DNA from: Deferrisomatales bacterium
GTDB lineage: Bacteria; Desulfobacterota; Deferrisomatia; Deferrisomatales; JACRMM01
Direction: 5' to 3'
Assembly (NCBI GenBank): GCA_033551855.1
Contig: JAWSUI010000003.1
Span: forward strand, 44,092 to 108,091
Length of the DNA: 64,000 nt
The notes below the pieces were generated by a model, which worked only from the letters and a program-made list of their open reading frames with translations, was not told where the DNA came from and made no database searches. The position numbers were made by a program, and so were the translations under genes. This document shows, in pieces, positions 996-23,687 of this stretch. The stretch's first letter is position 1, and the number at the start of each line of letters is the position of its first letter.

Positions 996-1609
996 GGGGT
1001 CTCCTTTCCTCCCCCGAACCCGCTCCGCTCGAGACACGCCCGCAGGGCCAGGCGCGCCCGGTGGAGCAGGACCCAGATATTCGTCGGGGTGGTCGCGAAT
1101 TCCTTGCAGAGCTCTTCCGTGGAGAGCCCTTCCAACTCCCGCAGCACGAAGAGACTGGCCCGCCGCGGAGAAAGCCGGCGCAGGCAGAGTTGCAATGCCT
1201 GCCGAAATCGTTTCCGGTCGAGTGCGTCGCCGGGGTCGAAGGGCCAGGGTCCAGGGGGCACCCGCCACCGGCCGCCGCCGTCAAAGAGGTCCTCCTCGGG
1301 GTCTGCCGCCGAGGCTTCCGGGGTCTGCGCGGCGCGCCGGAAGTGGTCGGCGATCTTGTGGCGTAGCACGCCGATCAGCCAGGTCCTCGGGCTCGAGCGC
1401 CCCTCGAAGCCGGCGCCCTTCACGAGGGCCAAGAACGTCTCCTGGACGACGTCGCGTGCGGTCTCCCGGTCCCCCACCCGCGAGAGCGCATAACGGAACA
1501 AATCATCTGCGTGCTCCGCCACCCAGCGCGCCACGTCGGTCCCGCTTGCCGGCTCCACCCTTGCAAGCGCCCCGGATTCCGGGGCGGCCGTCTCCCTTCC
1601 ATCATCCAT
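992..1609 (-). CDS. ECF-type RNA polymerase sigma-70 family factor
   Basis: Sigma region 2 (DVVQETFLAL...) and region 4 (LSPRRASLFVLRELEGLSTEELCKEF) are recognisable. ATG at 1607-1609 chosen; the ORF-track 5' extension looks non-coding. Confidence 0.8.
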   Translation of the reverse strand: MDDGRETAAPESGALARVEPASGTDVARWVAEHADDLFRYALSRVGDRETARDVVQETFLALVKGAGFEGRSSPRTWLIGVLRHKIADHFRRAAQTPEASAADPEEDLFDGGGRWRVPPGPWPFDPGDALDRKRFRQALQLCLRRLSPRRASLFVLRELEGLSTEELCKEFATTPTNIWVLLHRARLALRACLERSGFGGGKETP

Positions 1610-1821
1610 GCGTGCACCGTACAGGACGCGTACCCACGTCGGCAAGTGCCCGGCCACTCGGGAGAGTCCCAGCGCAGGCGCCTTCTCGTGGGACCCGGAA
1701 GGGGGACCGTTCGGCTCGGCGCCGCCCAGGCCGGGCGAGAGGGAACCCTGACCCGGGGGATGTCGAGGCACGGGCGGGACCTGGATTCCCCGCCTGGCCG
1801 GCAAGCGGGGTCCGGGAGCCC

Positions 1822-3918
1822 CTACGTTTCGCCCCGCAATCCGCGGCCATTCGAAGAGGTGTCCCCGCGGACCTCGATACGGCGGGCTTCACCCGTTTGC
1901 GCCGGAAGCGGCCGGTCGGTCGATACGGCACGGGGCGGGTCTTCGGGCCTCCCGGACCCCGGCCCAAGATCAAGGTGCGGGTTCTGGGGAACCCCATCGA
2001 CCCCGCCTTCCTCGAAGAACGACGCCACGTCCTCCCGGCGGCGGGTGCGGGGGAAGGGGGGGAGGCTGTCCAGGAGGAACCGGCCGTAGGACCTCTCGAG
2101 GAGCCGCCGGTCGAGGATCGCCACCACGCCCCGATCGGTGGTGCGGCGGAGGAGCCTCCCCACCCCCTGCCGGAGCGCCATGGCGGCAGCCGGGAGTTGG
2201 TAGGAGGAGAAGGGGGACTCACCCAGGGCCCTGGCCCGCTCGATCCGCGCCTCGACGAGGGGCTCGGTGGGAGTGGCGAACGGGAGCTTGTCGATGATGA
2301 CGGCGGAGAGGGCCTCCCCGGGCACGTCGACCCCTTCCCAGAAGGACTGGGCCCCCAGGAGCACCGAGTGGGTGTCGCGCCGGAAGGCCTCCAGGAGCAC
2401 CTCCCGGGGGGCCTGCCCCTGGACCAGGAGGGGGTAGGGAACCCGTGCGGCAAGGACCTCGGCCACGGCGCGCAGCACCCGGTGAGAGGTGAACAGGCAA
2501 AAGGCCCGGCCGCCCGTGGCCCGGAGCAGGGTGGCGATCTCCTCGGCCGCCGTCTCGGGGAAGGATGGGTTCCCCGGATCGGGCATCCGGGCGGGCACGT
2601 AGAGCAGCCCCTGCCGGGCGAAGTCGAAGGGGCTCGGGACCGCCACCTCCCGGGCGCCCTCCGGAATTCCCAGGCGGGCGGACAGATAGGCGAAGCTCCC
2701 CCCCGCCCGCAGCGTCGCCGAGGTGAGGACCACCGGCAACGGGCCCGAGAAGACCCTCGCCTGCAGGTGGGTGCCGATCTCCACCGGGGCGGCGTGGAGG
2801 GTGGCGGCGCGCCCCCGGGACGCGACCCAGCGCACCTCGCCCGCTTCGGGTTCCGTGGCGAAGCGGGCCAGGTCCTCTCGCAACTCCCGGCTGCGCCGGA
2901 AGAGGGCCTCCCACTCCTGACTCGCCGCCTGCCGCGGTGCCAGGCGGTCGATCCAGTGCGCCAGGGTATCGAGGAGTTCCGCCAGGGCCTCCCGGGCCTC
3001 CCCTTCCAGGGTGCCCCGCAACCGCAGGGGGACCTCGCCCCGCGGGAGGCTCGACCACAGCCTGTCGGAGGCCTCGGCTACAGCAGAGAGCGCCTGGGCC
3101 AGGGGGCCGTCGCTGCCGCCCAGGGCCCCGGCGGCGTCGCGGGTGAAGTCCGCCAAACGGTGGGAGCCCACGCGGGACCCGAAGTATTGGGTCGCAACCG
3201 GCTCCAGGTGGTGCGCCTCGTCGAAGACCACCGCCTCGTAGCGGGGCAGCACTTCCCCCGCCGAGGAGGAGCGCACGGCGAGGTCGGCGAAAAAGAGGTG
3301 GTGGTTGACCACGACCACCTGGGCCCGCTGGGCGGCGCGGCGGTGGGCACCCAGGTGGCACGGTTCCTCCCGGGGGCACTTCGCGCCCCAGCACGTCTCG
3401 GAGGTGGAGCAGATCTCCCGCCAGGGGCCGAAGTCGTCGGGAAGGTCGGCGAGCTCCGCCCGGTCCCCGGTGCGGGTCGCCCCGGCCCACGCCTCGAGGC
3501 GGGCGTACAGACGTGCCTCGGCGGCGAAGCGGAAGAGGGGCTGCGCCCGGAACCTCTCGAAGCGCCGCAGGCACAGGTAGTTCTGGCGTCCCTTGAGGAG
3601 GGCGACGGGAACCGAGCGCCCCAGGGCGGTGGCCAGGAGCGGGACGTCCTTTTGCAGGATCTGGGACTGGAGGGTCTTGGTGGCCGTGCTGACCACGACC
3701 TTCTTCCCCCCCAGGAGTGCCGGCACAAGGTAGGCCAGCGTCTTTCCGGTGCCCGTGCCGGCCTCCGCGAGAAGCACCCCGCCCTCCTGGAGGGTGCCGT
3801 ACACGGCTTGTGCCATGGCCGCCTGCCCGGGCCGGGCCTCGTAGCCCGGCAGACACCGAGCGAGGGGCCCGGCCGGACCGAAAAACCCCTGGACCCCCTC
3901 CCCGCCTCGGCTCGTCAC
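1822..3918 (-). CDS. dinG: DinG/XPD-family ATP-dependent DNA helicase with Fe-S domain
   Basis: Walker A AGTGTGKT, a DEAH box (VFDEAHHLE) and a 4-Cys cluster region (CSTSETCWGAKCPREEPC). Start set at GTG 3916-3918, just before the conserved LPGYEARPGQ. The start is uncertain because the ORF-track extension overlaps the PHP gene. Confidence 0.8.
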   Translation of the reverse strand: MTSRGGEGVQGFFGPAGPLARCLPGYEARPGQAAMAQAVYGTLQEGGVLLAEAGTGTGKTLAYLVPALLGGKKVVVSTATKTLQSQILQKDVPLLATALGRSVPVALLKGRQNYLCLRRFERFRAQPLFRFAAEARLYARLEAWAGATRTGDRAELADLPDDFGPWREICSTSETCWGAKCPREEPCHLGAHRRAAQRAQVVVVNHHLFFADLAVRSSSAGEVLPRYEAVVFDEAHHLEPVATQYFGSRVGSHRLADFTRDAAGALGGSDGPLAQALSAVAEASDRLWSSLPRGEVPLRLRGTLEGEAREALAELLDTLAHWIDRLAPRQAASQEWEALFRRSRELREDLARFATEPEAGEVRWVASRGRAATLHAAPVEIGTHLQARVFSGPLPVVLTSATLRAGGSFAYLSARLGIPEGAREVAVPSPFDFARQGLLYVPARMPDPGNPSFPETAAEEIATLLRATGGRAFCLFTSHRVLRAVAEVLAARVPYPLLVQGQAPREVLLEAFRRDTHSVLLGAQSFWEGVDVPGEALSAVIIDKLPFATPTEPLVEARIERARALGESPFSSYQLPAAAMALRQGVGRLLRRTTDRGVVAILDRRLLERSYGRFLLDSLPPFPRTRRREDVASFFEEGGVDGVPQNPHLDLGPGSGRPEDPPRAVSTDRPLPAQTGEARRIEVRGDTSSNGRGLRGET

Positions 3919-4181
3919 GGGGCCACCGGGGAGTCCCCGGTCCGTGAGGCGGGCCCCGCCGCGCGGAACCCGCCAACCCTCGGGAAAGGGTGCGAGACGC
4001 CAGGAGCACAGCCCCTTGCCGGCACGACCGAGCCGCGGGCCCCGAGGAAGAACCGCGAGGAGCGGCGCGGAAGGCCGCCGGAGCGACTGGGTCTCGAGCA
4101 GCCGCAGATTTCGGGCCGCGGCCCGGGGGCGTCGGGTTTCCCCTGTCGGCTGGGAGGGGCGATGCAGGCCACGGTGACTCC

Positions 4182-4211
4182 TTGTTGCGGCGCGTTCGCG
4201 GCGTCTAGAAT
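4182..4211 (+). promoter_or_regulatory. sigma70-like promoter (TTGTTG-18 nt-TAGAAT) placed for a leaderless PHP transcript
   Basis: The -10 TAGAAT at 4206-4211 ends 8 nt before the ATG at 4220. There is no Shine-Dalgarno in between. Confidence 0.4.
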
Positions 4212-4219
4212 GCCGTCCC

Positions 4220-4966
4220 ATGAAGATTCGAGCGGACCTGCACGTGCACACCGTGGCCAGCGGCCACGCCTTCTCCACTGTGGAAGAGATCGCCCGGGAG
4301 GCAGCCGCGCGGAAGTTGCGTGCGGTGGGGATCTCCGACCACGGCCCGGCCCTGCCCGGAGGTCCCCACATCAACTACTTCCGCGCCCTGCGCTTCCTGC
4401 CCCCCTTCCTCCGCGGGGTTCGCCTCCTCAAGGGGGTGGAGGCGAATCTCCTGGACCGCAAGGGGCGCCTCGACCTGCCCCCGGAGCTCCTGGAGCAGCT
4501 CGACTACGTGATGGTTGGATTTCACGAGGGATGCGGCCTCAAACCTTCCACCACCGCGGGGAACACGGGGGCCCTGGTGGCCGCGATGCAGCGGCCCGGG
4601 GTGCGGGTGCTGACCCACCCGGGAAACCCCGGGTTTCCGGTGGACATCTCCGCGCTGGCCCAGGCGGCCTGCGAGTTGGGGGTCGCCCTGGAGATCAACA
4701 ACTCTTCCTTTGGTCGGTCCCCGACACGCCAGGGGAGCCTGGAGCGCTGTTCCGCCCTCGCGGCGGCGGTGGCACGCGTGGGCGGCCCGATCGCTCTGTC
4801 GTCCGATGCCCACGTGGCCGGCCAGGTCGGAGAGGTGCACGACGCCTGGCGGGTGGCCTCGGCGGCCGGCATCCGCCCCGAACAGGTGGTCAACCGCACC
4901 TACAGCGGTCTCATGCGCTTCCTGGGCCTCGATGCCGAGGACGCGGCGGAGGCCCCGGTCCCCTAG
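4220..4966 (+). CDS. PHP-domain metal-dependent phosphoesterase (YcdX-like)
   Basis: N-terminal DLHVHT motif plus the later SDHG and SDAH histidine/aspartate motifs typical of the PHP fold. Confidence 0.85.
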   Translation: MKIRADLHVHTVASGHAFSTVEEIAREAAARKLRAVGISDHGPALPGGPHINYFRALRFLPPFLRGVRLLKGVEANLLDRKGRLDLPPELLEQLDYVMVGFHEGCGLKPSTTAGNTGALVAAMQRPGVRVLTHPGNPGFPVDISALAQAACELGVALEINNSSFGRSPTRQGSLERCSALAAAVARVGGPIALSSDAHVAGQVGEVHDAWRVASAAGIRPEQVVNRTYSGLMRFLGLDAEDAAEAPVP

Positions 4967-4983
4967 CCACGGGAAGGGGGGCA

Positions 4984-5166
4984 TCAGCCACCGGGGGACT
5001 CCTCCAGGTGGGTCACCCGATCCCACGGGATCTCCAGCATGCCGGTGGGAGAGCGCAGCACCAGCGCCTCCTCGCCCATCTCCACCACGATGCCTCGGTA
5101 CTCCACTCCAGAGGCCGTTACCCGCACCTGCGTACCCCGCAGCCTGCGCCACTCCGTCACGCGCAC
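4984..5166 (-). CDS. small hypothetical protein (60 aa) at the distal end of the T2SS operon
   Basis: GTG start preceded by GGGGAGGGGAG. Coding-like codon usage. No recognisable motif. Confidence 0.4.
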   Translation of the reverse strand: MRVTEWRRLRGTQVRVTASGVEYRGIVVEMGEEALVLRSPTGMLEIPWDRVTHLEESPGG

Positions 5167-5233
5167 CTCCCCTCCCCGGTCGGTTTCCCTTGGGCCCTGC
5201 CAACGGGTGACCGCGGAGCTTCCGCCCGGGCCG

Positions 5234-6157
5234 TCACTCCTCGATCCAGTCCACGAGCTCCACGGTGCGTTGGGCCCGGTCGCGCTGCAGCACCGCTCGG
5301 GCGATCCGCACCACCGGGTTCTGCGCCGCGGCCGGCACGTCCGCCGCCAGGAGGACCCGGAACCGGGCGCTCTCCACTTTCAGGTTCTGGCTCACGGCCG
5401 CGAAGTTCGCGACCCCGGAAAACGCGGCGTGGGTGCGGAGATCCCCAACCCGCTCCGCGTGCTGCTCCCCCAGCTCCTCGTAGAGCAGCTCGGCCTCGTC
5501 CCGCCGGATGGCCTCGTGGAGGCTCAGCAGGACCGGTACCGTCGCGGTGTTGACGTTGATGCCCCTGTCCGACCGGATGTCCACGTGGGGCAGGAGGCCG
5601 TGGAGCACCTCCCACGTGTACCCCTCCACCCGGCCCAAGTCCTCCAGGTGGTCCAAAGGCGCGTTGGGCACGGTGAACTCCGGGTTGATCTCGTAGGGGC
5701 CCTCCTGGTCCTCGTCCATCCAGTCCACAAGGGCGTCCACGAGGTCCGCGGGAGCGGCACCCTCCAGCTCCAGGGCGTCGAGCAGCCGCCGGTAGGCCGC
5801 GACCTGGGTCGGGACGGCCCTGCCGCGAGCATCGACGAGCGACCCCAGGGGAAACCTTCCATCCAGGTCTTCGACCGAGACGGACAGGGTTCCCTCCCCC
5901 AAGGGGACGGGGGGAATCGGCTGACTCCACAGCTCCGCCCGGTGGTCCACCGCGCTCTCTTCGGCATCCGCGAGGAGGAACGCCGAGGCCACCGTGACCC
6001 CGGAGCGCAGCAGCGCGTGGGCCTGCAAGGCATCGCGCAGGTTGACCGAGGACCGGAGCTTCAGCCGCGCCTCCCGCTGGAATTCGACCACCAGCACGGC
6101 CAGGAGGCTGATGAGGAGCACCACGAGAAGGAGCGCCGCCCCGCGCTGCCCCCTCAC
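5234..6157 (-). CDS. gspK: type II secretion minor pseudopilin GspK
   Basis: N-terminal hydrophobic helix (GAALLLVVLLISLLAVL) and a large GspK-like body. GTG start overlaps the gspJ stop (GTGA at 6154-6157). Confidence 0.8.
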   Translation of the reverse strand: MRGQRGAALLLVVLLISLLAVLVVEFQREARLKLRSSVNLRDALQAHALLRSGVTVASAFLLADAEESAVDHRAELWSQPIPPVPLGEGTLSVSVEDLDGRFPLGSLVDARGRAVPTQVAAYRRLLDALELEGAAPADLVDALVDWMDEDQEGPYEINPEFTVPNAPLDHLEDLGRVEGYTWEVLHGLLPHVDIRSDRGINVNTATVPVLLSLHEAIRRDEAELLYEELGEQHAERVGDLRTHAAFSGVANFAAVSQNLKVESARFRVLLAADVPAAAQNPVVRIARAVLQRDRAQRTVELVDWIEE

Positions 6158-6783
6158 GACGGCCCCCTCCGTGCTCGGTAGACGGGGGTCGAGGTGCGGA
6201 GGACCCGCTCCTCCTCGCCCTCCCCCCACGCGATCTCGACCGACACCGCGAGGGGCAGCAGGGGCTCCGCGTCCCGACGGCCGGTGTCCCAGCCGTCCAC
6301 CCAGTCCGTCCCGTCGTAACAGAGGACCTCGAAGCGCGAGACCCCGGGGAGGATCTCGTAGGAGACCCCGCCCTCTTCCGGGTCCCCGTCCAGGTCACGG
6401 GACTCTCGCCGGCGCAGGCGCAGCTGGCCCTCCCGGTCCCGCTCCACGAGGTAGCCCACCTCGGCCTCTCCCCCCGGCAGGGAGCCCGGCAGGGGGCTGA
6501 GCCGCGTGACGAAGGAGAGGGTGGACAGCCCGTCCGGCCCCCGATCCACATGGAAGCCGGTCGCCTGTGCACGGAAGGGGGTGGTCGTGGTGTGGAACGC
6601 CGCAGCGAGCTCGGTCGCCAAACGGTCGAGCACCATCGCGGCGGCGTGGACCTCACGGGTCTGGGCGTTCGACAGGTTCCGGGAGCGGGCGGCTCCCGAG
6701 TACGCGCCCTGGACGAGGCTGAGCACCAACGCCAGCAGCGCCAGCGCCAGGAGCACCTCCAGAAGGGTGAATCCCCGCCTCAA
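6154..6783 (-). CDS. gspJ: type II secretion minor pseudopilin GspJ
   Basis: Prepilin leader RRG|FTLLEVLLALALL. TTG start at 6781-6783 overlaps the gspI stop (TTGA). Confidence 0.75.
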   Translation of the reverse strand: MRRGFTLLEVLLALALLALVLSLVQGAYSGAARSRNLSNAQTREVHAAAMVLDRLATELAAAFHTTTTPFRAQATGFHVDRGPDGLSTLSFVTRLSPLPGSLPGGEAEVGYLVERDREGQLRLRRRESRDLDGDPEEGGVSYEILPGVSRFEVLCYDGTDWVDGWDTGRRDAEPLLPLAVSVEIAWGEGEEERVLRTSTPVYRARRGPS

Positions 6784-7193
6784 CGCTCCCCCTCCACGGC
6801 GTAGTAGACGAGCTCCGTCGAGGCCCGGTCCCCCCGCTCGGGCCAGAAAACGATCAGGCGGACCAGGCGGACACCCTCGAACTCGGTGGTCTCCACCCGC
6901 CTCTCCCAAGCGTAGTCGGGAAACGCCTCCCCGAAGTCACCGTCGTCCTGCCCCAGGTCGGGAAAGCCCTCCACCTCCGTCTCGGTGAGGAGCTCCCGGG
7001 TCAGGAGGGTCGCGGTCATGAGCCGCCGCGCCTGGGCTTCCTGGCGGGCCGCCGAGGTGTGGGCCGAGAGGAGGACCGTGAAGGCGGATCCCAGAATGGC
7101 CAGGGCGAGGAGAAGCTCCAGGAAGCTGAAGCCGCCGCGGAGAAGGCGGGCCCTCGCCCTGCGGCAAGACCTAATCCGGATCCACACGGCCAT
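6780..7193 (-). CDS. gspI: type II secretion minor pseudopilin GspI
   Basis: Prepilin-type N-terminus GG|FSFLELLLALAILG. Size and operon position fit GspI. ATG at 7193 (GTG at 7187 is an alternative). Confidence 0.75.
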   Translation of the reverse strand: MAVWIRIRSCRRARARLLRGGFSFLELLLALAILGSAFTVLLSAHTSAARQEAQARRLMTATLLTRELLTETEVEGFPDLGQDDGDFGEAFPDYAWERRVETTEFEGVRLVRLIVFWPERGDRASTELVYYAVEGER

Positions 7194-7676
7194 CGAAGAT
7201 CCCGACCTGCCCCGGCAGGGAGCGGATCACCACGGTGTAGAGGTTGCCGTCCCCGTCTTCGAGGTAGACCCAGCTGGGGGTCGCGTACCCCTGGGGGAGA
7301 AAATGGGTCAAGGCCCTTCCCCGGCTCACGACGCCCTCCACCGTGGTCTCCACTTCCCGAAAACGAAGGCCCTCGGGAAGGCGAACGAGCCCCGCCGGCA
7401 GGCCGGGGGACGGGAGGTAGTCACGCTCCTCCTCGTCCCACTGCCCCGCCCGATAGGTCTGTTCCTCGAAGTCGTAGATCAGGGCTAGGCTTTTTTTTTG
7501 AACGCGGCTTCTTCGTGGAGAGCCTGGGCTGTGGCGGCGAGACGCCGCAGGGCTTGGTTCTTTTGCCCCTCGCCCAGCCGGGGGAGGCGGGGAAGGAGCA
7601 CCGAGAGCGCCACCGCCAGGATGAGGAGGACGACCGCCAACTCCACCAGGGTGAAGCCGCGGCGCGAGGGGGTCAC
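7171..7676 (-). CDS. gspH: type II secretion pseudopilin GspH, reading frame interrupted at an A9 run (needs a -1 shift, or A10)
   Basis: The N-terminal piece (GFTLVELAVVLLILA) ends FKKKA* at 7485. The C-terminal domain continues in the -1 frame as SLALIYDFEEQTY... down to 7171. GTG start overlaps the gspG stop (GTGA at 7673-7676). Confidence 0.65.
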
Positions 7677-8119
7677 TCCAGATCCCAGTTGGCGATGTCG
7701 GCGAACCTCCCCTCGCCGCCCGGCTCGCCGTCCGCTCCGTAGGAGAGCAGGTCGAAGTCCCCGTGGTTGCCGGGGGAGAGATAGACGTAAGGGTTGCCCC
7801 AGGGGTCCCTCGGGACCACAGACTTCTCCAGATAGCCGCCCGCCCTCCACCGAGTCGGCACCCGGCCGACCGTGGGCTCGCGCACCAGGGCCTCGAGCCC
7901 CTGCTCGGTGTCCGGGTAGAACCCGTTGTCCACCTCGAATTGGCGCAGCGCGTCCTCCAACACCCGGATCTGGATCCGGGCCGCCGTAATCTTGGCATCC
8001 TCGCCTCGACCGAACAGCCGCGGCATCACCAAGCCGGCCAAGAGACCGAGGATCGTCAAGACCACCAGGAGCTCAATGAGGGTGAAGCCGGCATCGCGGC
8101 GACGTCTGTTCACGGGCAT
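7673..8119 (-). CDS. gspG: type II secretion major pseudopilin GspG
   Basis: Canonical leader and helix RRRRDAG|FTLIELLVVLTILGLL. C-terminal GspG-like domain (PWGNPYVY). Confidence 0.92.
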   Translation of the reverse strand: MPVNRRRRDAGFTLIELLVVLTILGLLAGLVMPRLFGRGEDAKITAARIQIRVLEDALRQFEVDNGFYPDTEQGLEALVREPTVGRVPTRWRAGGYLEKSVVPRDPWGNPYVYLSPGNHGDFDLLSYGADGEPGGEGRFADIANWDLE

Positions 8120-8147: not shown

Positions 8148-9368
8148 TCAACCCACGAGTTGACTCATCTCGAAAATGGGCAGGAGGATGGCAAGAACGA
8201 CGAAACCGACCGCCAATCCCATGAACAGGATCATAAGGGGTTCCAACAGGGACGTCAAGGTAGCCACCGAGGCTTCCACCTGGCCCTGAAAGGCCTCGGA
8301 CACTCTGAGCAGCAGGTCGTCGAGAGCCCCGCTCTCTTCCCCCACACCCACCATCTGGCACATCACCGAGGGGAACTCCCCCGTGGCCCGCAAGGCGTCC
8401 CGGAGACTGCGCCCTTCCCGCACGTCGTCCCGCACCCGCTCCACCGCCCGCTCCAGCACCGAGTTCCCGAGCACCGCCCGGGAGATGTCCAACGCGGTGA
8501 GAAGGGGCACCCCGCCGCTCAGGAGCGTGCCCAATGTCTTGGAAAAACGGCTCACGCCGACCAGCCGGACGAATCGTCCAAAGGCCGGGGTGCGCAGCAC
8601 CAGCCCGTCGATGACGAGTCGCCCCGCCGGGGTGCGGCCGTAGCGGCGCAGTGCGAAGAAGAGGAGAAGGAGCACCGGCAGGGCGACCCACCCGTACTCC
8701 TGCAGAAAGCTGCTCGTGGCCAGGAGCATGCGGGTAGGCGCAGGCAGCGCCCTGCGCATGTCGGCAAAGATATCCGTCACCCGGGGCACCACGCTGGTCA
8801 GGAGGAACCAGAGGATCCCCGCCCCCAACAGCGTCATCAGGGCGGGATAGACCAGGGCTGCCTGCAGCCGCTGCCGAAAGGCTACCGATGCCTCGAGGAA
8901 ATCCGCCAGTCGGCTGAGGACGAGGGGCAGGGTTCCGCTTGCTTCCCCGGAGCGGACCATGTTCCGGTAGATCTCAGGAAACGAACGGGAGTGCTCCCCC
9001 AGGACGTCGTGGAAGGCCCGCCCCTCGTTCACCCCCTCGCGGACCTGGGACAGCAGGCGGCTCATGCGGGGGCTGTCGGTCTGCTCCAGCAGTGCCCCGA
9101 GGGCCGCCACCAGGGGCAAGCCGGCCCCCAGGAGGGTGGCGAGCTGCCGGGTGAGGACGGCGAGCTCCCCCACCCGAACCCCGCGAGAGAGTCTCGGCCT
9201 CACGCCCCGATCGGTCGTCGCCTCCGCCTTGGCCATCTCGGTCACGCGCGTGGCGAACACCCCCTGCCGCTTGAGCTTCGCCCGCACGGCCCGGGGGCCG
9301 TCCCCGTCCACGATCCCGCGGGCGGCGCGGCCCCGGGAGTCCAGTCCCTCATACTCGAAGACGGCCAA
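8148..9368 (-). CDS. gspF: type II secretion inner-membrane platform protein GspF
   Basis: 406 aa with a duplicated GspF domain and hydrophobic segments. TTG start preceded by GGGGGAG. Confidence 0.9.
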   Translation of the reverse strand: MAVFEYEGLDSRGRAARGIVDGDGPRAVRAKLKRQGVFATRVTEMAKAEATTDRGVRPRLSRGVRVGELAVLTRQLATLLGAGLPLVAALGALLEQTDSPRMSRLLSQVREGVNEGRAFHDVLGEHSRSFPEIYRNMVRSGEASGTLPLVLSRLADFLEASVAFRQRLQAALVYPALMTLLGAGILWFLLTSVVPRVTDIFADMRRALPAPTRMLLATSSFLQEYGWVALPVLLLLFFALRRYGRTPAGRLVIDGLVLRTPAFGRFVRLVGVSRFSKTLGTLLSGGVPLLTALDISRAVLGNSVLERAVERVRDDVREGRSLRDALRATGEFPSVMCQMVGVGEESGALDDLLLRVSEAFQGQVEASVATLTSLLEPLMILFMGLAVGFVVLAILLPIFEMSQLVG

Positions 9369-9378: not shown

Positions 9379-11085
9379 CTAGATCGCCTCTTCCTGGGTG
9401 ACCCGGAGCACCTCCTCGGCGCTGGTGATCCCCCGCAGGAGCTTCCGGGTGCCGTCGTCCCGCAGGGTCAGCATCCCCCCTCGCCGCGCTTCCTCCTTGA
9501 TGGTCGCCGAGTCCGCCCCCTTCATGATGAGGTTGCGGATCCGCTCGTCCACCGTCAGCAGCTCGTAGATCCCGGAACGGCCTCGGTACCCGGTCTGCAT
9601 GCAGTGGGGACACCCCTTGGCGCGGTACAGGTGCCCTTCGGGGAGATCCGAAGCGTGAAGGCCGAGCTCCGCCAGTCCTTCGGGGGGGGGCAAATAGGGC
9701 TCGCGGCACGCCGGGCACAACACCCGGACGAGGCGTTGGGCGAGGATCGCCAGCACGGAAGACGACACCAGGAAGGGCTCGACCCCCATGTCCACCAGCC
9801 GGGTCACCGCCCCGGCCGCGTCGTTGGTGTGGAGGGTGGACAACACCAGGTGACCGGTGAGGCTCGCCTGGATGGCGATCTCGGCGGTCTCTCCGTCGCG
9901 GATCTCCCCCACCATGATCACGTCCGGGTCCTGCCGTAGGATCGACCGGAGGCCAGCAGCGAAGGTCAGGGCGATCTTGGGGTTGACGTGGATCTGGCCG
10001 ATCCCCCGGAGCTGGTACTCGATGGGGTCCTCGACGGTAATGATATTGATGTCCTCGGAGTTGATCCGCGAGAGGGCGGCATACAGGGTGGTGGTCTTCC
10101 CGGAACCCGTCGGCCCGGTGACCAGGAGAATCCCGTAGGGGCGGGTGATGAGCTTCTTGAACGCCTCGAGACGCTCGCCGCCGAGTCCCAACTCCTCCAG
10201 GTCCAGGAGCACCGCGGACTTGTCCAGCAGGCGCATCACCACCCGCTCGCCGTAGGCCGTCGGGAGCACCGAGACGCGGATGTCGATGTCCTTTCCCGCG
10301 ATCTTGATGCGGATCCGGCCGTCCTGGGGCAGGCGCTTCTCGGCGATGTCGAGGCCCGCCATGACCTTGATCCGGCTGGTGATCGCCGCCTGCAGGGTCT
10401 TCGGGGGAGTGAGAACCGGGTAGAGCACACCGTCGATGCGGTAGCGGATCTGGAGCTCCCGCTCGAAGGCCTCCACGTGAATGTCGCTGGCCCGGTCCTT
10501 CACCGCCTGGAACATGATCCCGTTGACCAGCCGGATGATGGGTGCCTCGTCGGAGGCGTCCAGGAGGTCCTTGGGCTCCTCGATCTCGTGGGCCAGGGCA
10601 GAAAGCCCCACGTCGCTGAGCCCCTCCATCAGGTCCCCGGCCCGGTCGGAGCCCAGCTCGTACACCCGGTTGATGGCCTGGAGAATCCGGTCCGCCGGTG
10701 CCAGGCACGGTGACACCGGCCGTCCCAGGAGCACTCGCAGATCGTGGAGGACTCGCAGGTCCTCCCCGTCGGCGACCGCGACCAGAACCCGGCCGTTCTC
10801 CTCCCCCAGCGGGAGCACCCGGTGGCGCTTGGCGAACTGGATCGGGACGAGGCGAACCACGTCCTCCGGGATCTCGGCCGGCCGGATCTCGGGGGCGACG
10901 GGTAAACCGAAAGCCTCCGCCTGTGCTTGGAGGAGGGCTTCGGAGCCCACCAGCCCCAAGGAGGAAAGGGCCTCCGACAGGCTGCCGCCCCGCTCGGCCT
11001 GCCCGGCCTGCCCGCGGGCAAGCCCCTCCTCGTCCAGCAGGCCCTTCCCCAAGAGGAGCTCGCCCAGGCCCCTTCGCGCCGTCAC
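9379..11085 (-). CDS. gspE: type II secretion ATPase GspE
   Basis: Walker A GPTGSGKTT, Asp/His boxes and a tetracysteine motif (CPAC...CPHC). GTG start overlaps the gspD stop (GTGA at 11082-11085). Confidence 0.92.
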   Translation of the reverse strand: MTARRGLGELLLGKGLLDEEGLARGQAGQAERGGSLSEALSSLGLVGSEALLQAQAEAFGLPVAPEIRPAEIPEDVVRLVPIQFAKRHRVLPLGEENGRVLVAVADGEDLRVLHDLRVLLGRPVSPCLAPADRILQAINRVYELGSDRAGDLMEGLSDVGLSALAHEIEEPKDLLDASDEAPIIRLVNGIMFQAVKDRASDIHVEAFERELQIRYRIDGVLYPVLTPPKTLQAAITSRIKVMAGLDIAEKRLPQDGRIRIKIAGKDIDIRVSVLPTAYGERVVMRLLDKSAVLLDLEELGLGGERLEAFKKLITRPYGILLVTGPTGSGKTTTLYAALSRINSEDINIITVEDPIEYQLRGIGQIHVNPKIALTFAAGLRSILRQDPDVIMVGEIRDGETAEIAIQASLTGHLVLSTLHTNDAAGAVTRLVDMGVEPFLVSSSVLAILAQRLVRVLCPACREPYLPPPEGLAELGLHASDLPEGHLYRAKGCPHCMQTGYRGRSGIYELLTVDERIRNLIMKGADSATIKEEARRGGMLTLRDDGTRKLLRGITSAEEVLRVTQEEAI

Positions 11086-13199
11086 GGCTGACCGGCCTCC
11101 CCCTTGAGACGGTCCAGATAGTGCTCCAGCTTCTGGGCGGGCTGCAGGGGAGGCGCTCCCGTGGGGGTCACCTGCTCTTCGTACAGGAAGCGCTTGTCCT
11201 CGGTCACCTCCTCGAGCTTCGCCATGCTCGTCACGATGCGCGGCGTGAGGAAGATCAGCAGGTTCTTCTTCCGGGTCTCCTGACGGGAGCTCCGGAAGAG
11301 GTACCCCAGGAGCGGAAGATCGCCCAGGCACGGCACGGAGGACGCGGTCATCTGGGTGTCGTCGCTCACCAGCCCGCCGATCACAACGGTGGTCTGGTCC
11401 TGGACCACGACCGTGGTCCTCGCCGACCGCCGCGTGGTGGACGGGGCGTTGATGCTTCCGCCGGTGGCCGTGCTCAGGATCTGGCTCGTCTCCTGGAAGA
11501 GGCGGAGCCGGACGAAGTTGTCCTCGTTGATCTGGGGGGTGAAGCGCAACGTCAACCCCACATCGCGGTACTCGAAGGTGGAGATGGGGTTCCCCTGGGA
11601 GTCGAACTTCTCGCTGGTCTTGAAGGGGATGTTGTCCGAGACGACGATCTCGGCCTCCTCGTTGTCCGTGGTGATCAGGTGGGGGGAGCTCAGCACGTTG
11701 ACGTCCGAGTCGGTCTGGAGCGCTCTGAGCAGGGCCCCGACGTTGAGGAACTCTCTCCCGGCGAAGGTCACGGTGCCCTTGATCACCCCGAGGGCCAGCC
11801 CCTGGGGGACGGCCAGGGGCCCCCCGACCGCCACGTTGCCGATCGTGCCGAAATTGGTGGAGGCGAAGCCGGTAAGGTCCCCTCCGCGGGGATCGTCGGT
11901 GGTGCGCCACTCGACACCGAGCTCCAAGGCCTTCTCGAAGCTCATCTCGACGATCAAGGCGTCGACCAGCACCTGGGGCCGGCGGATATCGAGCTTCTCG
12001 ATGACGTCGCGCAGGATCTCGTAGTCCTGGGGGCTGGCGATGATCACCAGGGAGTTGGTGGTCTTGTCGGCGGTAATCTGGACGGGCTCCTCGAACTCCA
12101 CGCTCGCCTCGGTCGCCCCGGTGGCCCGGGCCGCGGGTTGGGGCTGGCCCGGCCGCGGCCGGGTGCCCGCGGACTTGGAGATGGCGGTGAGGACGGAGGC
12201 CACGTTCTCCGCGTCGGCGTACTTCAGATAGTAGACGTTGATCTTCCCGGAACCCTTCGGGATCTCCACGTCCAACGCCTCGATCATCACCTTGATGTCC
12301 GCCATGGTCTGGGGGTCGGAGATCACGATCAGGGCATTGGTCCGCGAGTCGGGGATGATCTTCACCGCCGTCGCCTCGGCCTGCACCTGCTGGACCTGGG
12401 CCTGTCCCCTGGCCGGGGCCGCCCGGCGCACCTGTCGGGTCCGGTCCGCGACGACCTGGGCCAGGTTCTTCGCCATGATCTCTGCCGAGGCGTAGCGCAT
12501 GGGGATGATCTCGAGGACCGTGTCCACCGTCTCGACGTCCAGGGAACGGATAATCTCCAGGAGCCGCTCGATGTTGGCGTGGGAGTCGATCACGATGAGC
12601 GTGTTCGTGGCCGGATAGGCGATGACCGGGCTGCCCTTGGTCACCAGAGGGGAGATCACCTGCACGATGCCGTTTACATCGACGTACTGGAGCGGGATGA
12701 TGCGCGTCACCACGCGATCCCCCGGAGGTGCCGAGTCCCGGACCGTCTCCACCGTGGTCTGGGATGCCAGCTGGGTCTGGACGATCTTGTAGACCCTACC
12801 CGACGGGACGATCGTGAAGTTCTTGATGTTGAGCATGGTCTGGAAGATCTCGTAGGCCTCGTCCACGGTCACCTGCAGGGGGCTGATCAGGGTGACCTTG
12901 CCCCACTGGCGCTGGTCGGCGTCGAGAATGAAGCTCTTCCCCGTCACCTCCGAGATGAACTGCACGACCGCGTTGAGCTCCGCGTCCTTGAAGTTCAGAG
13001 TGATGCGCCGGTCCGCCTGCCGGGTGGCCGCGGGCCGGGGCGGGCGCGCGGGAGCCCCCGGGGAGACCGACGGTTCCGGAGGCGCAGTCACCTCCGGCGC
13101 AACGGCGGGGCCGTCCTCGACGGTCTGGGCCGACGGCGGCGTCGGCGCGAGGAGCAGGCAGGTGATGATCAGGCCGATGATCGGGCGCAGGAATCGCAC
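11082..13199 (-). CDS. gspD: type II secretion secretin GspD
   Basis: Signal peptide, N-domains and a C-terminal secretin domain. GTG at 13197-13199 is preceded by AAGGAGGA. Confidence 0.9.
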   Translation of the reverse strand: MRFLRPIIGLIITCLLLAPTPPSAQTVEDGPAVAPEVTAPPEPSVSPGAPARPPRPAATRQADRRITLNFKDAELNAVVQFISEVTGKSFILDADQRQWGKVTLISPLQVTVDEAYEIFQTMLNIKNFTIVPSGRVYKIVQTQLASQTTVETVRDSAPPGDRVVTRIIPLQYVDVNGIVQVISPLVTKGSPVIAYPATNTLIVIDSHANIERLLEIIRSLDVETVDTVLEIIPMRYASAEIMAKNLAQVVADRTRQVRRAAPARGQAQVQQVQAEATAVKIIPDSRTNALIVISDPQTMADIKVMIEALDVEIPKGSGKINVYYLKYADAENVASVLTAISKSAGTRPRPGQPQPAARATGATEASVEFEEPVQITADKTTNSLVIIASPQDYEILRDVIEKLDIRRPQVLVDALIVEMSFEKALELGVEWRTTDDPRGGDLTGFASTNFGTIGNVAVGGPLAVPQGLALGVIKGTVTFAGREFLNVGALLRALQTDSDVNVLSSPHLITTDNEEAEIVVSDNIPFKTSEKFDSQGNPISTFEYRDVGLTLRFTPQINEDNFVRLRLFQETSQILSTATGGSINAPSTTRRSARTTVVVQDQTTVVIGGLVSDDTQMTASSVPCLGDLPLLGYLFRSSRQETRKKNLLIFLTPRIVTSMAKLEEVTEDKRFLYEEQVTPTGAPPLQPAQKLEHYLDRLKGEAGQP

Positions 13200-13262
13200 C
13201 GTCGGTCCTCCTTCTGGGTATCGTGGGATTCCGCCCTGCACCGGGCGTCGACCGGCGGAAAG

Positions 13263-14195
13263 CTATCGGATCTCGTAGTTGAAGGTCCGGTTTTCGTTGC
13301 GACGCACGAGGTCGATCTGGATCGACGTCTCCTCTCTCAGGGCCTGGTAGGCCTGGAAGGCCTGCTCCGGCCCCTCGAGCTCGATCCCGTTCACGCGCTT
13401 CAGGACGTCGCCGTTTTGCAGCCCGATACGGGCAAACAGGCTTCCCGGCCGGATGGCGAAGACCTTGAAGCCGTCCGGTTGGCCGTCGGCGAAGTTGGGC
13501 ACGACCCGAATCTGGGTCATGAGCTGGTTCAGGTTGGCGCCGGCCTCCTCGATCTCTCGGCTGTCGATGAGCCAGTTGCTCTCGTCCACCTGCCTCACGG
13601 TCTCCGCTGCCGGGGCGGGCGGGGGTACCGGCTGCGCCCGGGCCGCGGCCGGCTGCCGGCCCCGGGCCGGTGCGGGCTGGGCGGTCTCCGGAGGGTACAG
13701 GAGGACCTCCTCCATCGCGCCCGCTCGGTCCACGAGAATCCGGTCCGACCGGACTTCGGCCAGGCGCGCGGCGGGGGCCACCTCCTCGTCGACACGGACG
13801 AGCTTGATCTCGTTTCCCGACTGGATCAACGCGAACGATCGGCCGCCCTCCACCACCGCCGTGCCGAACAGGGTGATGTTGAGCGGAGTCCGCGGGGCCG
13901 GAGAGGGAACCGCCTGACCCGCGGCGGCGCCGGGACCCTGAGCCTCGGAGGGCTCCGGCCTTGCCGGCTTGGGGTTGGCATTGAAGACGTTCCGATCCTG
14001 GATCACCAGGAAATCCCCCAGCCGCTCCCCTGCGGCCACCTCGGCGCGAGGCGCCTCCTGGGATGCCGTCGCGGTCTCGGCCACCCACAGACGCTTGGCG
14101 AGGAGGACGCTGGCGAGGCGCGCCGAGAGGAAGGCCGCTCCGGCCAGGAAGAGCAGAGTAAGGACCCAGAAATACTTCAGAATCTGGTCACGCAT
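13263..14195 (-). CDS. gspC: type II secretion protein GspC with C-terminal PDZ domain
   Basis: N-terminal TM helix, a Pro/Ala-rich linker and a PDZ-like end (GSLFARIGLQNGDVLKRVNG). Sits directly upstream of gspD. Confidence 0.75.
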   Translation of the reverse strand: MRDQILKYFWVLTLLFLAGAAFLSARLASVLLAKRLWVAETATASQEAPRAEVAAGERLGDFLVIQDRNVFNANPKPARPEPSEAQGPGAAAGQAVPSPAPRTPLNITLFGTAVVEGGRSFALIQSGNEIKLVRVDEEVAPAARLAEVRSDRILVDRAGAMEEVLLYPPETAQPAPARGRQPAAARAQPVPPPAPAAETVRQVDESNWLIDSREIEEAGANLNQLMTQIRVVPNFADGQPDGFKVFAIRPGSLFARIGLQNGDVLKRVNGIELEGPEQAFQAYQALREETSIQIDLVRRNENRTFNYEIR

Positions 14196-14338
14196 GCACC
14201 GTCTCGCATTCGCGCTAGGATACGCGACCGCTCAACGGGCGTGCAAGGACTGGATGGGCCACCGGGAGGAAGGCGGCGCCGAAATCCCCGGCCCGCCGCT
14301 GCCGCACGCGGACAGGGTGACGCCACGGGGAGGCGAAC

Positions 14339-23291: not shown

Positions 23292-23687
23292 CTACCCGAG
23301 GCGTTCCCGGATGAAATCCACCACCGCGGTGGTATCGGTGCCGGGCAAGAAGATCTCGGCAAACCCTACGTCCTTGAGGGACGGGATGTCCTCCATCGGG
23401 ATGATCCCCCCCCCGAAGAGCAGAAGCTCTGCTTTCCCCTTGCGGCTCAGCCCTTCCGCCACCCGCGGAAACAGAACCATGTGCGCCCCGGAGAGGCACG
23501 ACAACCCCACCACATCCACGTCTTCTTGGACGGCGGCAGCCACGATCTTCTCCGGCGTCTGGCGAATCCCTGTGTAGATGACTTCCATCCCGGCATCCCG
23601 CAGGGCCCTGGCCACGACTTTGGCTCCCCGGTCGTGTCCGTCGAGACCCGGCTTGGCGATCAGGACGCGGATCTTTTTCTGAGCCAT
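23292..23687 (-). CDS. methylmalonyl-CoA mutase, small B12-binding subunit
   Basis: DxHxxG cobalamin-binding motif ([12 protein letters not shown]). 131 aa. Confidence 0.9.

What the first reader, a model, noticed from the sequence alone, without database searches (positions are those of the whole stretch)
7485..7505. gspH is split exactly at an A9/T9 homopolymer: slippage, phase variation or error
- The prepilin-type N-terminus (VTPSRRGFTLVELAV...) reads ...EEAAFKKKA* through nine consecutive A on the coding strand (T9 at 7491-7499).
- The GspH-like C-terminal domain continues in the -1 frame as ...KKSLALIYDFEEQTYRAGQW... to 7171.
- A -1 shift on A-AAA-AAA-G, or an A10 tract, yields one pseudopilin of about 168 aa (7171-7676 is 506 nt, one short of a multiple of 3).
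- A 9-nt A/T run inside a gene is conspicuous in a genome this GC-rich.
- Runs of this length are known substrates for RNA-polymerase slippage, and A-AAA-AAG-type sites for -1 ribosomal frameshifting (dnaX paradigm).
Basis: partly seen in the sequence, partly recalled or inferred. Interest (0 to 1): 0.6.

Follow-up and report, generated by a model that had tools for sequence, protein, structure and literature searches.

The report
Conserved A9 frameshift site in gspH
The secretion-system gene gspH of this Deferrisomatales bacterium is split by a run of nine A's that is kept, base for base, in at least twelve diverged relatives, so the split is a selected slippage ("recoding") site and not an error or a dead gene.

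Summary
On the minus strand, gspH runs from GTG 7676 to ...FKKKA-TAG (7485) through A9 (7491-7499). The GspH globular domain continues in the -1 frame to 7171.

The decisive result is comparative. Eleven further lineages (13 further assemblies, several from short-read SPAdes or MEGAHIT assemblies) share only 42-76% GspH identity. All carry exactly (T/G)TC-A9-GC at the same codon with the same -1 frame break. No A8 or A10 was found.

- Flanking codons vary freely at synonymous sites.
- AAA is 2-7% of Lys codons in the window.
- The post-tract domain is under purifying selection (dN/dS about 0.3-0.45).
- Six close relatives encode one uninterrupted ORF with non-slippery codons (FRRKS, FQKKS, YQKRS), matching the product of an A10 mRNA.
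- The fused protein models confidently (pLDDT 90.8) as a GspH/EpsH/XcpH fold. The shift site lies exactly at the boundary between helix alpha1 and the globular domain.
- No conserved stimulatory RNA structure or SD-like element was found.

Best reading: programmed recoding, most likely RNA-polymerase slippage (A9 to A10), possibly helped by -1 ribosomal slippage on A_AAA_AAA. Assembly error and pseudogene are effectively excluded, and phase variation is disfavoured. This is a new member of a known kind, and I found no published case in a type II secretion pseudopilin.

The parts
7673..8119 (-). gspG, the major pseudopilin. Its TGA stop overlaps the gspH GTG start (GTGA), which indicates translational coupling into gspH.
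   Evidence: Pfam T2SSG 1.6e-39 and TIGR01710 3e-51. The NTGA overlap is conserved in 10 of 11 lineages examined.
7485..7676 (-). gspH ORF1 in the 0 frame. It holds the prepilin leader, the G|FTLVE cleavage and methylation motif and the whole alpha1 helix, and ends ...EEAAFKKKA-TAG (63 aa).
   Evidence: Translation; N_methyl PF07963 5e-07 and TIGR02532. In the AF2 model the helices span residues 10-30 and 34-60.
7491..7499 (-). The A9 slippery tract (three AAA Lys codons in the 0 frame, in-phase heptamer A_AAA_AAA). This is the recoding site.
   Evidence: It is invariant in 12 of 12 lineages while neighbouring codons vary synonymously. AAA is 1 of 51 Lys codons in the T2SS operon and 7% in the window's coding-like ORFs.
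7485..7487 (-). The 0-frame TAG stop, one codon after the tract. It is created by the rare Leu codon CTA of the -1 frame.
   Evidence: CTA occurs at this codon in 4 of 12 lineages but makes up 1.1% of Leu codons in the window.
7171..7491 (-). gspH ORF2 in the -1 frame. It encodes the globular beta-sheet domain SLALIYDFEE...GRVDPD and is reached when one extra A is present in the mRNA or the ribosome slips by -1.
   Evidence: dN/dS is about 0.25-0.5 among A9 lineages. The strands start at residue 64 in the model, and Foldseek hits EpsH, XcpH, GspH and FimU.
6780..7193 (-). gspI, a minor pseudopilin. Its start overlaps the 3' end of gspH ORF2 by 23 nt, about 290 nt downstream of the 0-frame stop.
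   Evidence: T2SSI/XpsI matches. The overlap is conserved, at -35 to +4 nt across lineages.
6154..6909 (-). gspJ, a minor pseudopilin (operon context).
   Evidence: PF11612 3.6e-09 and TIGR01711.
5234..6229 (-). gspK, a minor pseudopilin (operon context).
   Evidence: NF037980 2.2e-50.
8148..9368 (-). gspF, the platform protein (operon context).
   Evidence: ORF. The homologous gene in L001 carries T2SSF domains.
9379..11085 (-). gspE, the ATPase (operon context). Its GTG start overlaps the gspD stop (GTGA).
   Evidence: The homologous gene in L001 carries T2SSE.
11082..13241 (-). gspD, the secretin (operon context).
   Evidence: ORF. The L001 homologue carries Secretin domains.
13266..14231 (-). 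gspC of the deltaproteobacterial type (operon context).
   Evidence: NF041515 GspC_delta 3.5e-72.

Best explanation
gspH of this Deferrisomatales bacterium is a recoded gene, and the genomic A9 with its frame break is the normal, selected state.

- Standard decoding yields a 63-aa 'headless' pseudopilin: the leader plus the alpha1 helix only.
- Full-length GspH (168 aa) is made from the fraction of expression events in which one extra A is added.
- The most likely route is RNA polymerase slipping on the nine-base dT:rA hybrid, giving A10 transcripts that read F-K-K-K-S-L-A-L-I-Y.
- A smaller contribution may come from -1 ribosomal slippage on the in-phase A_AAA_AAA.

By analogy with measured A9-A11 sites, I expect roughly 20-40% full-length product.

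gspH is translationally coupled to the highly expressed gspG upstream (GTGA overlap) and to gspI downstream. The site therefore probably acts as a fixed-ratio valve that keeps the minor pseudopilin GspH, and perhaps GspI, J and K, scarce relative to GspG.

Shown here: conservation of the tract and of the frame break, selection on the downstream frame, and the identity and fold of the fused product.

Inferred: the level at which slippage occurs, its efficiency, and the stoichiometric role.
For: 1. Exactly A9 with the same -1 break occurs at the same codon in 12 lineages and 14 assemblies: the window, L001, L002, L005, L006, L075, L076, L079/80/81, L082, L083, L084 and L085. Their GspH identity is only 42-76%.
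2. Flanking codons vary synonymously while all nine A's are invariant. Synonymous differences elsewhere in the gene are pS 0.35-0.6. AAA is 2% of Lys codons in the operon and 7% in the window.
3. The post-tract frame is open in every lineage, with dN/dS about 0.25-0.5. This is similar to the N-terminal part and close to the in-frame pair L003-L004 (0.22).
4. Six close relatives are single ORFs with FRRKS, FQKKS, FQKRS or YQKRS at the junction and three residues between F/Y and S. This is the product of +1 A or a -1 shift, written with non-slippery codons.
5. TIGR01708 GspH aligns across the junction, residues 6-81. The AF2 model has pLDDT 90.8, and its best PDB matches are EpsH, XcpH, GspH and FimU.
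6. The tract length is always 9, although a heptamer would be enough for ribosomal -1 slippage. The first codon is AAA in 12 of 12 A9 lineages, while in-frame relatives tolerate R or Q there.
7. No conserved hairpin or SD-like element was found and there is no Rfam frameshift element.
8. Literature. Nine A/T is the threshold for efficient bacterial RNAP slippage, and conserved run length plus a conserved shifted-frame extension is the accepted criterion for purposeful slippage (PMC1088944). In E. coli reporters, 9 A's gave 40% frameshifting, 7 A's gave 10% and 11 A's gave 63% (PMC3711429). Ribosome sliding in vitro is weak at A9-A10 (PMC4363877).
9. Coupling geometry is conserved across lineages.
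Against: - No RNA, read-level or protein data exist for any of these uncultured organisms, so the extra A in mRNA has not been observed.
- A_AAA_AAA is a legitimate in-phase -1 heptamer, and three rare AAA codons in a GC-rich organism could pause ribosomes. A translational contribution cannot be excluded.
- The slippage propensity of Deferrisomatales RNA polymerase is unknown.
- The stoichiometric 'valve' role is inference from gene overlaps only.
- Related lineages do without the site, so it is not essential to T2SS function.
Confidence: 0.6

Rival explanations
1. Programmed -1 ribosomal frameshifting, or ribosome sliding, on A_AAA_AAA is the main route to full-length GspH. The mRNA stays A9. 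tRNA-Lys(UUU) in the P and A sites re-pairs one base back, and the next codon read is AGC.
For: - The heptamer is in phase.
- AAA is a rare codon here, so pausing is plausible.
- A 0-frame stop follows within 1-3 codons in most lineages, and in 4 of 12 it is created by the rare CTA codon.
- A_AAA_AAA is a known IS-element shift site (PMC3711429).
Against: - No conserved downstream hairpin or pseudoknot and no consistent upstream SD-like element. RNAalifold gives -11.6 kcal/mol with an unfavourable covariation term of +2.1, and per-sequence MFE z-scores are near 0. Rfam gives no hit.
- All 12 lineages keep nine A's although seven would be enough.
- In vitro ribosome sliding is weak at A9-A10 (PMC4363877).
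- Unstimulated heptamers gave about 10% in reporters, against 40% for A9 (PMC3711429).
Confidence: 0.25
2. Phase variation at the DNA level. Replication slippage switches the tract between A9 (OFF) and A10 (ON), so only a subpopulation makes GspH and has a working T2SS.
For: Homopolymers in surface-structure genes are classic contingency loci (PMC3711429, PMC9187656), and A9 is mutable during replication.
Against: - 14 of 14 assemblies from unrelated samples show A9, with no A8 or A10. One species gives A9 in three separate samples.
- The in-frame relatives whose DNA was seen (L003, L004) carry non-slippery codons and not A10.
- The C-terminal domain is under purifying selection (dN/dS about 0.25-0.5) even though the OFF genotype is universal.
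- Consensus assemblies cannot, however, exclude a minority ON subpopulation.
Confidence: 0.07
3. Decaying pseudogene: gspH was inactivated by a 1-bp deletion and is no longer expressed as a full-length protein.
For: The ORF is formally interrupted, and annotation pipelines call two fragments or 'hypothetical protein'.
Against: - The same break sits at the same base in 12 lineages separated by near-saturated synonymous divergence.
- No second lesion is present in any of them.
- dN/dS in the downstream frame is about 0.25-0.5 in most pairs.
- gspI, gspJ and gspK are intact and overlap gspH.
Confidence: 0.03
4. Sequencing or assembly error: the true tract is A10 and was under-called.
For: Homopolymer under-calling is common with some long-read platforms, and the platform used for the window's MAG is unknown.
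Against: - The same A9 is found in independent assemblies, several with SPAdes or MEGAHIT contig names that imply short reads (L005, L006, L079-81).
- Other G9, C9, G8 and C8 runs in the window lie inside intact ORFs.
- Even if the tract were A10, a 10-A run conserved in 61-68% GC genomes would still be a selected slippery site.
Confidence: 0.02

Closest known systems
Thermus thermophilus dnaX (transcriptional slippage on an A9 run)
   Same: Both are GC-rich bacteria with a non-mobile cellular gene that carries exactly nine A's in the sense strand. No RNA stimulator is needed, stops lie nearby in the other frames, and one gene gives two products in a set ratio (PMC1088944, PMC5009743).
   Different: In dnaX the templated frame gives the long product and slippage gives the short one. 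Here the polarity is reversed: slippage is required for the full-length protein. Slippage in dnaX is shown experimentally, whereas here it is inferred.
Shigella flexneri mxiE and spa13 (type III secretion; slippage on T9/A-runs)
   Same: These are secretion-machinery genes written as two overlapping ORFs, and slippage is needed for the extended functional product (25-30% for spa13). There are marked effects on expression of the adjacent downstream, overlapping gene (PMC5009743), which parallels the gspH-gspI overlap here.
   Different: They belong to a different secretion system and different protein families, and are plasmid-borne in one genus. Here the site is chromosomal and conserved over much deeper divergence (42-76% protein identity).
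Citrobacter rodentium tssM1 (type VI secretion; A11 run)
   Same: A premature stop is preceded by a poly-A tract, and RNAP slippage restores the frame in about 20-25% of products. Both the truncated and full-length forms and their ratio are required, and most homologues lack the site (PMC4256274).
   Different: The tract is A11, not A9, and the protein is a large membrane-complex component, not a pilin. A function for the truncated form is shown there and is only hypothetical here.
IS-element orfA-orfB fusions made by A9 slippage or by A_AAA_AAA/A_AAA_AAG -1 frameshifting
   Same: The sequence motif and the -1 relationship of the two ORFs are the same, and conservation of run length among homologues is the diagnostic (PMC1088944, PMC3711429).
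   Different: Those are mobile elements that make transposase. Here the gene is a structural component of a core secretion operon with no mobile-element features.
E. coli dnaX -1 programmed ribosomal frameshifting (A_AAA_AAG with an SD-like element and a hairpin)
   Same: A lysine-codon slippery site in a cellular gene, with the two products sharing an N-terminus.
   Different: The defining stimulators (an upstream SD-like element and a downstream stem-loop) were looked for and not found. A_AAA_AAG is not in phase here.

Membership tests
Programmed transcriptional slippage sites (A9/T9 class) | A homopolymeric A or T run of about 9 or more bases in the coding strand at the junction of two overlapping ORFs | tested here: met
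   A9 at 7491-7499 lies between the 0-frame ORF and the -1 ORF.
Programmed transcriptional slippage sites (A9/T9 class) | Run length conserved among homologues (criterion of Baranov et al. 2005, PMC1088944) | tested here: met
   12 of 12 lineages and 14 of 14 assemblies have exactly A9.
Programmed transcriptional slippage sites (A9/T9 class) | The shifted-frame extension is conserved as protein | tested here: met
   dN/dS of the post-tract frame is about 0.25-0.5. In-frame homologues match it, and the fusion has the GspH fold.
Programmed transcriptional slippage sites (A9/T9 class) | A heterogeneous mRNA population with inserted A's | not testable with these tools
   No transcriptome or read data are available.
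-1 programmed ribosomal frameshifting (dnaX / IS3 type) | An in-phase X_XXY_YYZ slippery heptamer | tested here: met
   A_AAA_AAA is in phase with the 0 frame.
-1 programmed ribosomal frameshifting (dnaX / IS3 type) | A conserved stimulatory stem-loop or pseudoknot 5-9 nt downstream | tested here: not met
   RNAalifold finds no helix just 3' of the tract, and the covariation term is unfavourable. Downstream MFE z-scores range from -1.6 to +1.3, and Rfam gives no hit.
-1 programmed ribosomal frameshifting (dnaX / IS3 type) | An upstream SD-like stimulator at 10-14 nt | tested here: inconclusive
   GAAGAAG, GAGGA and GAGCAAG encode the conserved E-E/D residues and are equally present in in-frame relatives. 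There is no consistent anti-SD match.
GspH minor pseudopilin (T2SS) | A prepilin leader with G|F cleavage site, Glu5 and a hydrophobic alpha1 helix | tested here: met
   RRG|FTLVEL; PF07963 and TIGR02532.
GspH minor pseudopilin (T2SS) | The GspH/FimU-type globular fold | tested here: met
   The AF2 model has pLDDT 90.8. Top Foldseek PDB hits are EpsH 2qv8, XcpH 9a1f_Q, GspH 2knq and FimU 4ipu, all with probability 1.00.
GspH minor pseudopilin (T2SS) | Position between gspG and gspI-J-K in a gspC-K operon | tested here: met
GspH minor pseudopilin (T2SS) | Score above the TIGR01708 equivalog cut-off | tested here: not met
   37.7 bits against a cut-off of 80. This is a divergent GspH-like member, assigned by fold and synteny and not by the curated HMM.
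Phase-variable contingency locus | Tract-length polymorphism among strains or populations | tested here: not met
   No A8 or A10 in 14 assemblies. Minority alleles within populations could not be tested.

The most novel reading that the evidence does not exclude
The site is a two-product switch and not only a throttle.

- The abundant 0-frame product is a processed, membrane-inserted 'headless' pseudopilin: the alpha1 helix without a globular domain.
- This product could itself take part in pseudopilus assembly, for example as a chain terminator, a length limiter or a competitor at the GspG/GspH interface.
- In that case the fixed ratio of headless to full-length GspH, together with coupled delivery of ribosomes to gspI, gspJ and gspK, would set pseudopilus tip stoichiometry.

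Selection for an immediate 0-frame stop (the rare CTA codon in 4 of 12 lineages) would fit a defined short product.
Probability: 0.2. Interest if true: 0.75.

Novelty: new member of a known kind. Interest (0 to 1): 0.6.

Why it matters
- Conserved recoding in non-mobile bacterial genes is rare; known cases include dnaX, prfB, mxiE/spa13 and tssM. This one adds a type II secretion pseudopilin, in a poorly studied order of anaerobes. Its comparative signal is unusually clean: an A9 tract kept in 61-68% GC genomes across near-saturated synonymous divergence, interleaved with lineages that have 'repaired' the gene.
- Annotation pipelines currently split this gene or label its parts hypothetical. 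T2SS completeness calls for these MAGs are therefore wrong, and frameshift-aware annotation should rescue the gene.
- With T3SS (mxiE/spa13) and T6SS (tssM), it makes a third secretion machine in which poly-A/T slippage appears to set subunit ratios. This suggests a general, cheap way of fixing stoichiometry inside translationally coupled operons.
- The natural pairs of A9 and in-frame lineages offer a ready-made experiment on what the frameshift is for.

Tried and rejected
- **First genome scan attempt.** The search for related loci with the 9-sequence alignment A1 failed because no stretch was conserved enough. It was repeated with closer sequences.
- **Bias in the genome scan.** Only two close loci were recovered. 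The metagenome scan was therefore run with a profile of the C-terminal domain only.
- **Finding the window's own record.** Exact look-up of the window's GspG and RadA found no contig on record. The source was identified only through the RadA protein cluster: MDW7709287.1, a Deferrisomatales MAG. A sister MAG (MFU8855723.1) could not be inspected at gspH.
- **Upstream nascent-RNA hairpin.** A hairpin abutting the tract, as in the Roseiflexus IS630-type stimulator, was considered. RNAalifold drew a weak helix ending 1 nt before TTC, but pairs are broken in several sequences and z-scores are near 0. In-frame controls look the same. Rejected.
- **T9 as a terminator.** T9 on the + strand as an intrinsic terminator for an antisense transcript: no stem precedes it. 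Rejected.
- **Known RNA families.** Known frameshift elements and other RNA families: no Rfam hit at E up to 1.
- **Deletion route.** An A7 mRNA (loss of two A's) would give F-K-K-S, one residue shorter than every in-frame homologue. It is therefore not the main productive route.
- **Literature.** No paper links transcriptional slippage or frameshifting with pseudopilins, GspH or type II secretion.
- **Profile search of 1.84 billion representatives.** Only two 50%-identity clusters score below 1e-30, so the recoded clade is narrow. Outgroup GspH-like proteins are ordinary single ORFs, and the outgroup loci whose DNA was fetched have no A-run in or beside the matched gene.
Full report
**1. Observation**

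The minus strand of the window carries a type II secretion operon.

| Gene | Coordinates |
|---|---|
| gspC | 13266-14231 |
| gspD | 11082-13241 |
| gspE | 9379-11085 |
| gspF | 8148-9368 |
| gspG | 7673-8119 |
| gspH | 7171-7676 |
| gspI | 6780-7193 |
| gspJ | 6154-6909 |
| gspK | 5234-6229 |

These assignments rest.

gspH begins at GTG 7676, which overlaps the gspG stop as GTGA. It reads VTPSRRG|FTLVELAV...EEAAFKKKA and stops at TAG 7487-7485. The three Lys codons form an A9 run at 7491-7499. The -1 frame continues as SLALIYDFEE...GRVDPD to 7171.

The span 7171-7676 is 506 nt, and one added A gives a 168-aa protein. The run is the only A/T homopolymer of 8 or more bases in 64 kb of 68% GC DNA. 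Shuffles expect 0.01 such runs. The one refinement is that the in-phase heptamer is A_AAA_AAA and not the dnaX-type A_AAA_AAG.

**2. Relatives**

A protein search with the conceptually fused GspH found two kinds of hits:
- full-length single-ORF homologues (P0001, P0002, P0003);
- shorter proteins (P0004, P0005) whose N-termini look like out-of-frame translation ending in ...VQKKSLA.

Their DNA shows the same TTC-A9-GCCTGG at the same codon, with the same need for a -1 shift. L001 is an NCBI Deferrisomatales MAG and L002 is a Logan assembly.

Further searches added more lineages:
- a genome scan;
- a metagenome scan with a C-terminal-domain profile that is unbiased with respect to the tract;
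- a profile protein search followed by contig look-ups.

These gave L005, L006, L075, L076, L079/L080/L081 (one species in three samples), L082, L083, L084 and L085. The total is 12 distinct lineages in 14 assemblies. All have exactly nine A's, and none has A8 or A10. Several contigs carry SPAdes or MEGAHIT names, which implies short-read data.

Inserting one A yields an intact 167-173-aa prepilin-type GspH in every lineage with a complete gene. Six close relatives are uninterrupted. The two whose DNA I could read use non-slippery codons:
- L003: TTC CGC CGC AAG AGT = FRRKS;
- L004: TAC CAG AAG AGG AGC = YQKRS.

The others read FQKKS, FQKRS or FRRKS. All have three residues between F/Y and S, which is what an A10 mRNA or a -1 shift would produce.

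**3. Selection**

| Measure | Result |
|---|---|
| GspH identity among A9 lineages | 42-76%, median 59% |
| Synonymous differences elsewhere in the gene (pS) | 0.35-0.6 |
| Codons next to the tract | vary freely (Ala GCC/GCG/GCT; Leu CTA/CTG/CTT/TTG; Glu GAA/GAG) |
| The nine A's | invariant in 12 of 12 |
| AAA share of Lys codons, window T2SS genes | 1 of 51 |
| AAA share of Lys codons, window coding-like ORFs | 44 of 594 |
| AAA share of Lys codons, gspH outside the tract (all lineages) | 6 of 24 |
| dN/dS of the post-tract frame | 0.24-0.76, mostly 0.3-0.45 |

The post-tract frame has no stop in any lineage. Its dN/dS is indistinguishable from that of the N-terminal part and not far from the in-frame pair (0.22). 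The downstream domain is therefore translated, and the tract itself is under selection. Pseudogene and assembly-error readings do not survive this. Other G9, C9, G8 and C8 runs in the window lie inside intact ORFs.

**4. The product**

- The curated GspH model TIGR01708 aligns across the junction (residues 6-81), though below its cut-off: 37.7 against 80 bits.
- An AlphaFold2 model of the fused sequence is confident (pLDDT 90.8). It has helices at 10-30 and 34-60 and beta strands from residue 64.
- K60-K62|S63 therefore sits exactly at the hinge between the alpha1 helix and the globular domain.
- Foldseek against the PDB returns V. cholerae EpsH, P. aeruginosa XcpH, E. coli GspH and FimU as the only significant hits.

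The 0-frame product is thus a complete alpha1 helix without a head domain. Its 0-frame tail is not conserved: it is 1-16 codons long, and more than 70 in L085.

**5. Mechanism**

No conserved structure follows or precedes the tract.
- The RNAalifold consensus energy is -11.6 kcal/mol with an unfavourable covariation term.
- Per-sequence MFE z-scores scatter around zero and do not differ from the in-frame controls.
- The upstream purine-rich stretch only encodes the conserved Glu-Glu/Asp residues and is shared with in-frame relatives.
- Rfam gives no hit, and there is no terminator-like feature at the T9 on the other strand.

Ribosomal -1 slippage needs only A_AAA_AAA. Yet the first codon is AAA in 12 of 12 A9 lineages, although in-frame relatives show that R or Q is acceptable at that position.

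Published data bear on this:
- Nine is the length at which bacterial RNA polymerase slips efficiently, and conserved run length plus a conserved shifted extension is the accepted signature of purposeful slippage (PMC1088944).
- In E. coli reporters, 7, 9 and 11 A's gave 10, 40 and 63% frameshifting (PMC3711429).
- Ribosome sliding in a purified system is weak at A9-A10 (PMC4363877).

I therefore favour RNA-polymerase slippage (A9 to A10) as the main route, at about 0.6. Ribosomal -1 slippage is a possible contributor or alternative, at about 0.25. That the site is a genuine selected recoding signal, whatever the level, I put at about 0.9.

**6. Phase variation**

Homopolymers in surface-structure genes often phase-vary. 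Three points argue against that here:
- every consensus (14 of 14) is A9, including one species sampled three times;
- in-frame relatives have eliminated the run instead of carrying A10;
- the 'OFF' genotype shows purifying selection on the downstream domain.

Minority ON alleles inside populations cannot be excluded without reads, so I keep this reading at about 0.07.

**7. Evolution and distribution**

RadA in the window is 100% identical to MDW7709287.1 from a Deferrisomatales MAG, and Deferrisoma palaeochoriense RadA is 71% identical.

An exhaustive profile search of 1.84 billion cluster representatives found only two 50%-identity clusters below 1e-30. By contrast, 289 are below 1e-10, and nearly all of those listed are ordinary full-length single ORFs. 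The recoded clade is therefore narrow.

In bootstrapped NJ trees:
- the A9 plus in-frame group is monophyletic in 100% of replicates;
- the in-frame forms alone are monophyletic in 0.2%;
- the A9 forms alone are monophyletic in 0%.

The two states are interleaved. The simplest history is an ancestral A9 with several independent conversions to a non-slippery in-frame gene. The tree is short and noisy, so I do not claim a number of events.

**8. Likely role (inferred)**

- The gspH start overlaps the gspG stop (NTGA) in 10 of 11 lineages.
- The gspI start overlaps, or lies within 4 nt of, the gspH stop.
- The 0-frame stop lies 281-326 nt upstream of that junction.

GspG is the bulk pseudopilin, and GspH-I-J-K form the low-copy tip. 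A fixed-efficiency frameshift immediately after the alpha1 helix would throttle the ribosome flux coming from gspG into gspH, and possibly into the coupled gspI, gspJ and gspK.

This parallels Shigella spa13 and mxiE. There, slippage yields 25-30% extended product (spa13) and strongly affects the overlapping downstream gene (PMC5009743). It also parallels C. rodentium tssM1, with 20-25% frameshifting and a requirement for both forms and their ratio (PMC4256274). Whether the headless product has a function of its own is open.

**9. Comparison and novelty**

The phenomenon belongs to a known kind: programmed slippage on poly-A. It meets the sequence-level criteria for the A9 transcriptional class and fails the stimulator criteria of dnaX-type -1 PRF. 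Literature searches found no report of recoding in a pseudopilin, in GspH or in any T2SS gene. I classify it as a new member of a known kind.

Interest is moderate to high for recoding and secretion specialists, for three reasons:
- the clarity of the comparative evidence;
- the reversed polarity relative to dnaX;
- the natural A9 versus in-frame contrasts.

**10. Limits**

All evidence is comparative and computational, and it comes from MAGs and metagenome contigs. No read pile-ups, transcripts or peptides were available. The sequencing platform of the window's MAG is unknown. The efficiency estimate is borrowed from E. coli and Shigella data.

Noticed in passing
window 7485-7488 (-); same codon in L005, L082, L084: The Leu codon just after the shift site is the rare CTA in 4 of 12 A9 lineages, which places a 0-frame TAG one codon after the tract. 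CTA is 1.1% of Leu codons in the window's coding-like ORFs (16 of 1459). This may reflect selection for immediate termination of the unshifted product. The lineages are not fully independent.
   Followed up: partly
window 7673-7676 and 11082-11085 (-); loci L001-L084: Start and stop codons overlap as NTGA at gspG/gspH (GTGA in the window) and at gspD/gspE (GTGA). gspI overlaps the end of gspH by 23 nt. The whole operon looks translationally coupled.
   Followed up: partly
L003 1044-1047: In the in-frame relative L003, no ATG, GTG or TTG precedes the prepilin leader of gspH. The only candidate start is ATA, overlapping the gspG TAA stop (ATAA). Gene callers therefore start P0001, P0009 and P0010 at an internal Met and lose the leader.
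   Followed up: partly
window 9682-9690, 23406-23414, 29413-29421, 32040-32048: Four G9 or C9 runs, plus several 8-mers, lie inside uninterrupted coding-like ORFs; 9682 encodes the PPP of GspE. None coincides with a frame break.
   Followed up: partly
window 34686-44844 (-): A Wood-Ljungdahl gene block: CODH/ACS alpha-beta (34686-36899), the anaerobic CO dehydrogenase catalytic subunit (36909-38870), corrinoid activation protein AcsV (40666-42705) and formate-tetrahydrofolate ligase (42709-44844).
   Followed up: no
window 23746-29623 (-): A cluster of methylmalonyl-CoA mutase, methylmalonyl-CoA decarboxylase alpha-like carboxyltransferase, and an oxaloacetate decarboxylase/pyruvate carboxylase B-like subunit with a biotin carrier domain. 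This suggests a propionate or succinate pathway.
   Followed up: no
L085 356-364: The most divergent A9 lineage has GTC (Val) in place of TTC (Phe) before the tract, and its 0-frame stays open for more than 70 codons after the tract. Neither the preceding Phe codon nor an early 0-frame stop is therefore universal.
   Followed up: partly
window 62671-62759 (+): The only tRNA in the window is tRNA-Leu(GAG). No tRNA-Lys gene is present, so the Lys-tRNA complement relevant to ribosomal slippage could not be assessed.
   Followed up: no
window 994-5553 (+) and other very long ORFs: Many long 'ORFs' in the mechanical list, such as the 1519-aa ORF at 994-5553, are stop-poor alternative frames typical of 68% GC DNA and not genes. 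Real genes were recognised by GC3 above 0.8 together with family matches.
   Followed up: partly
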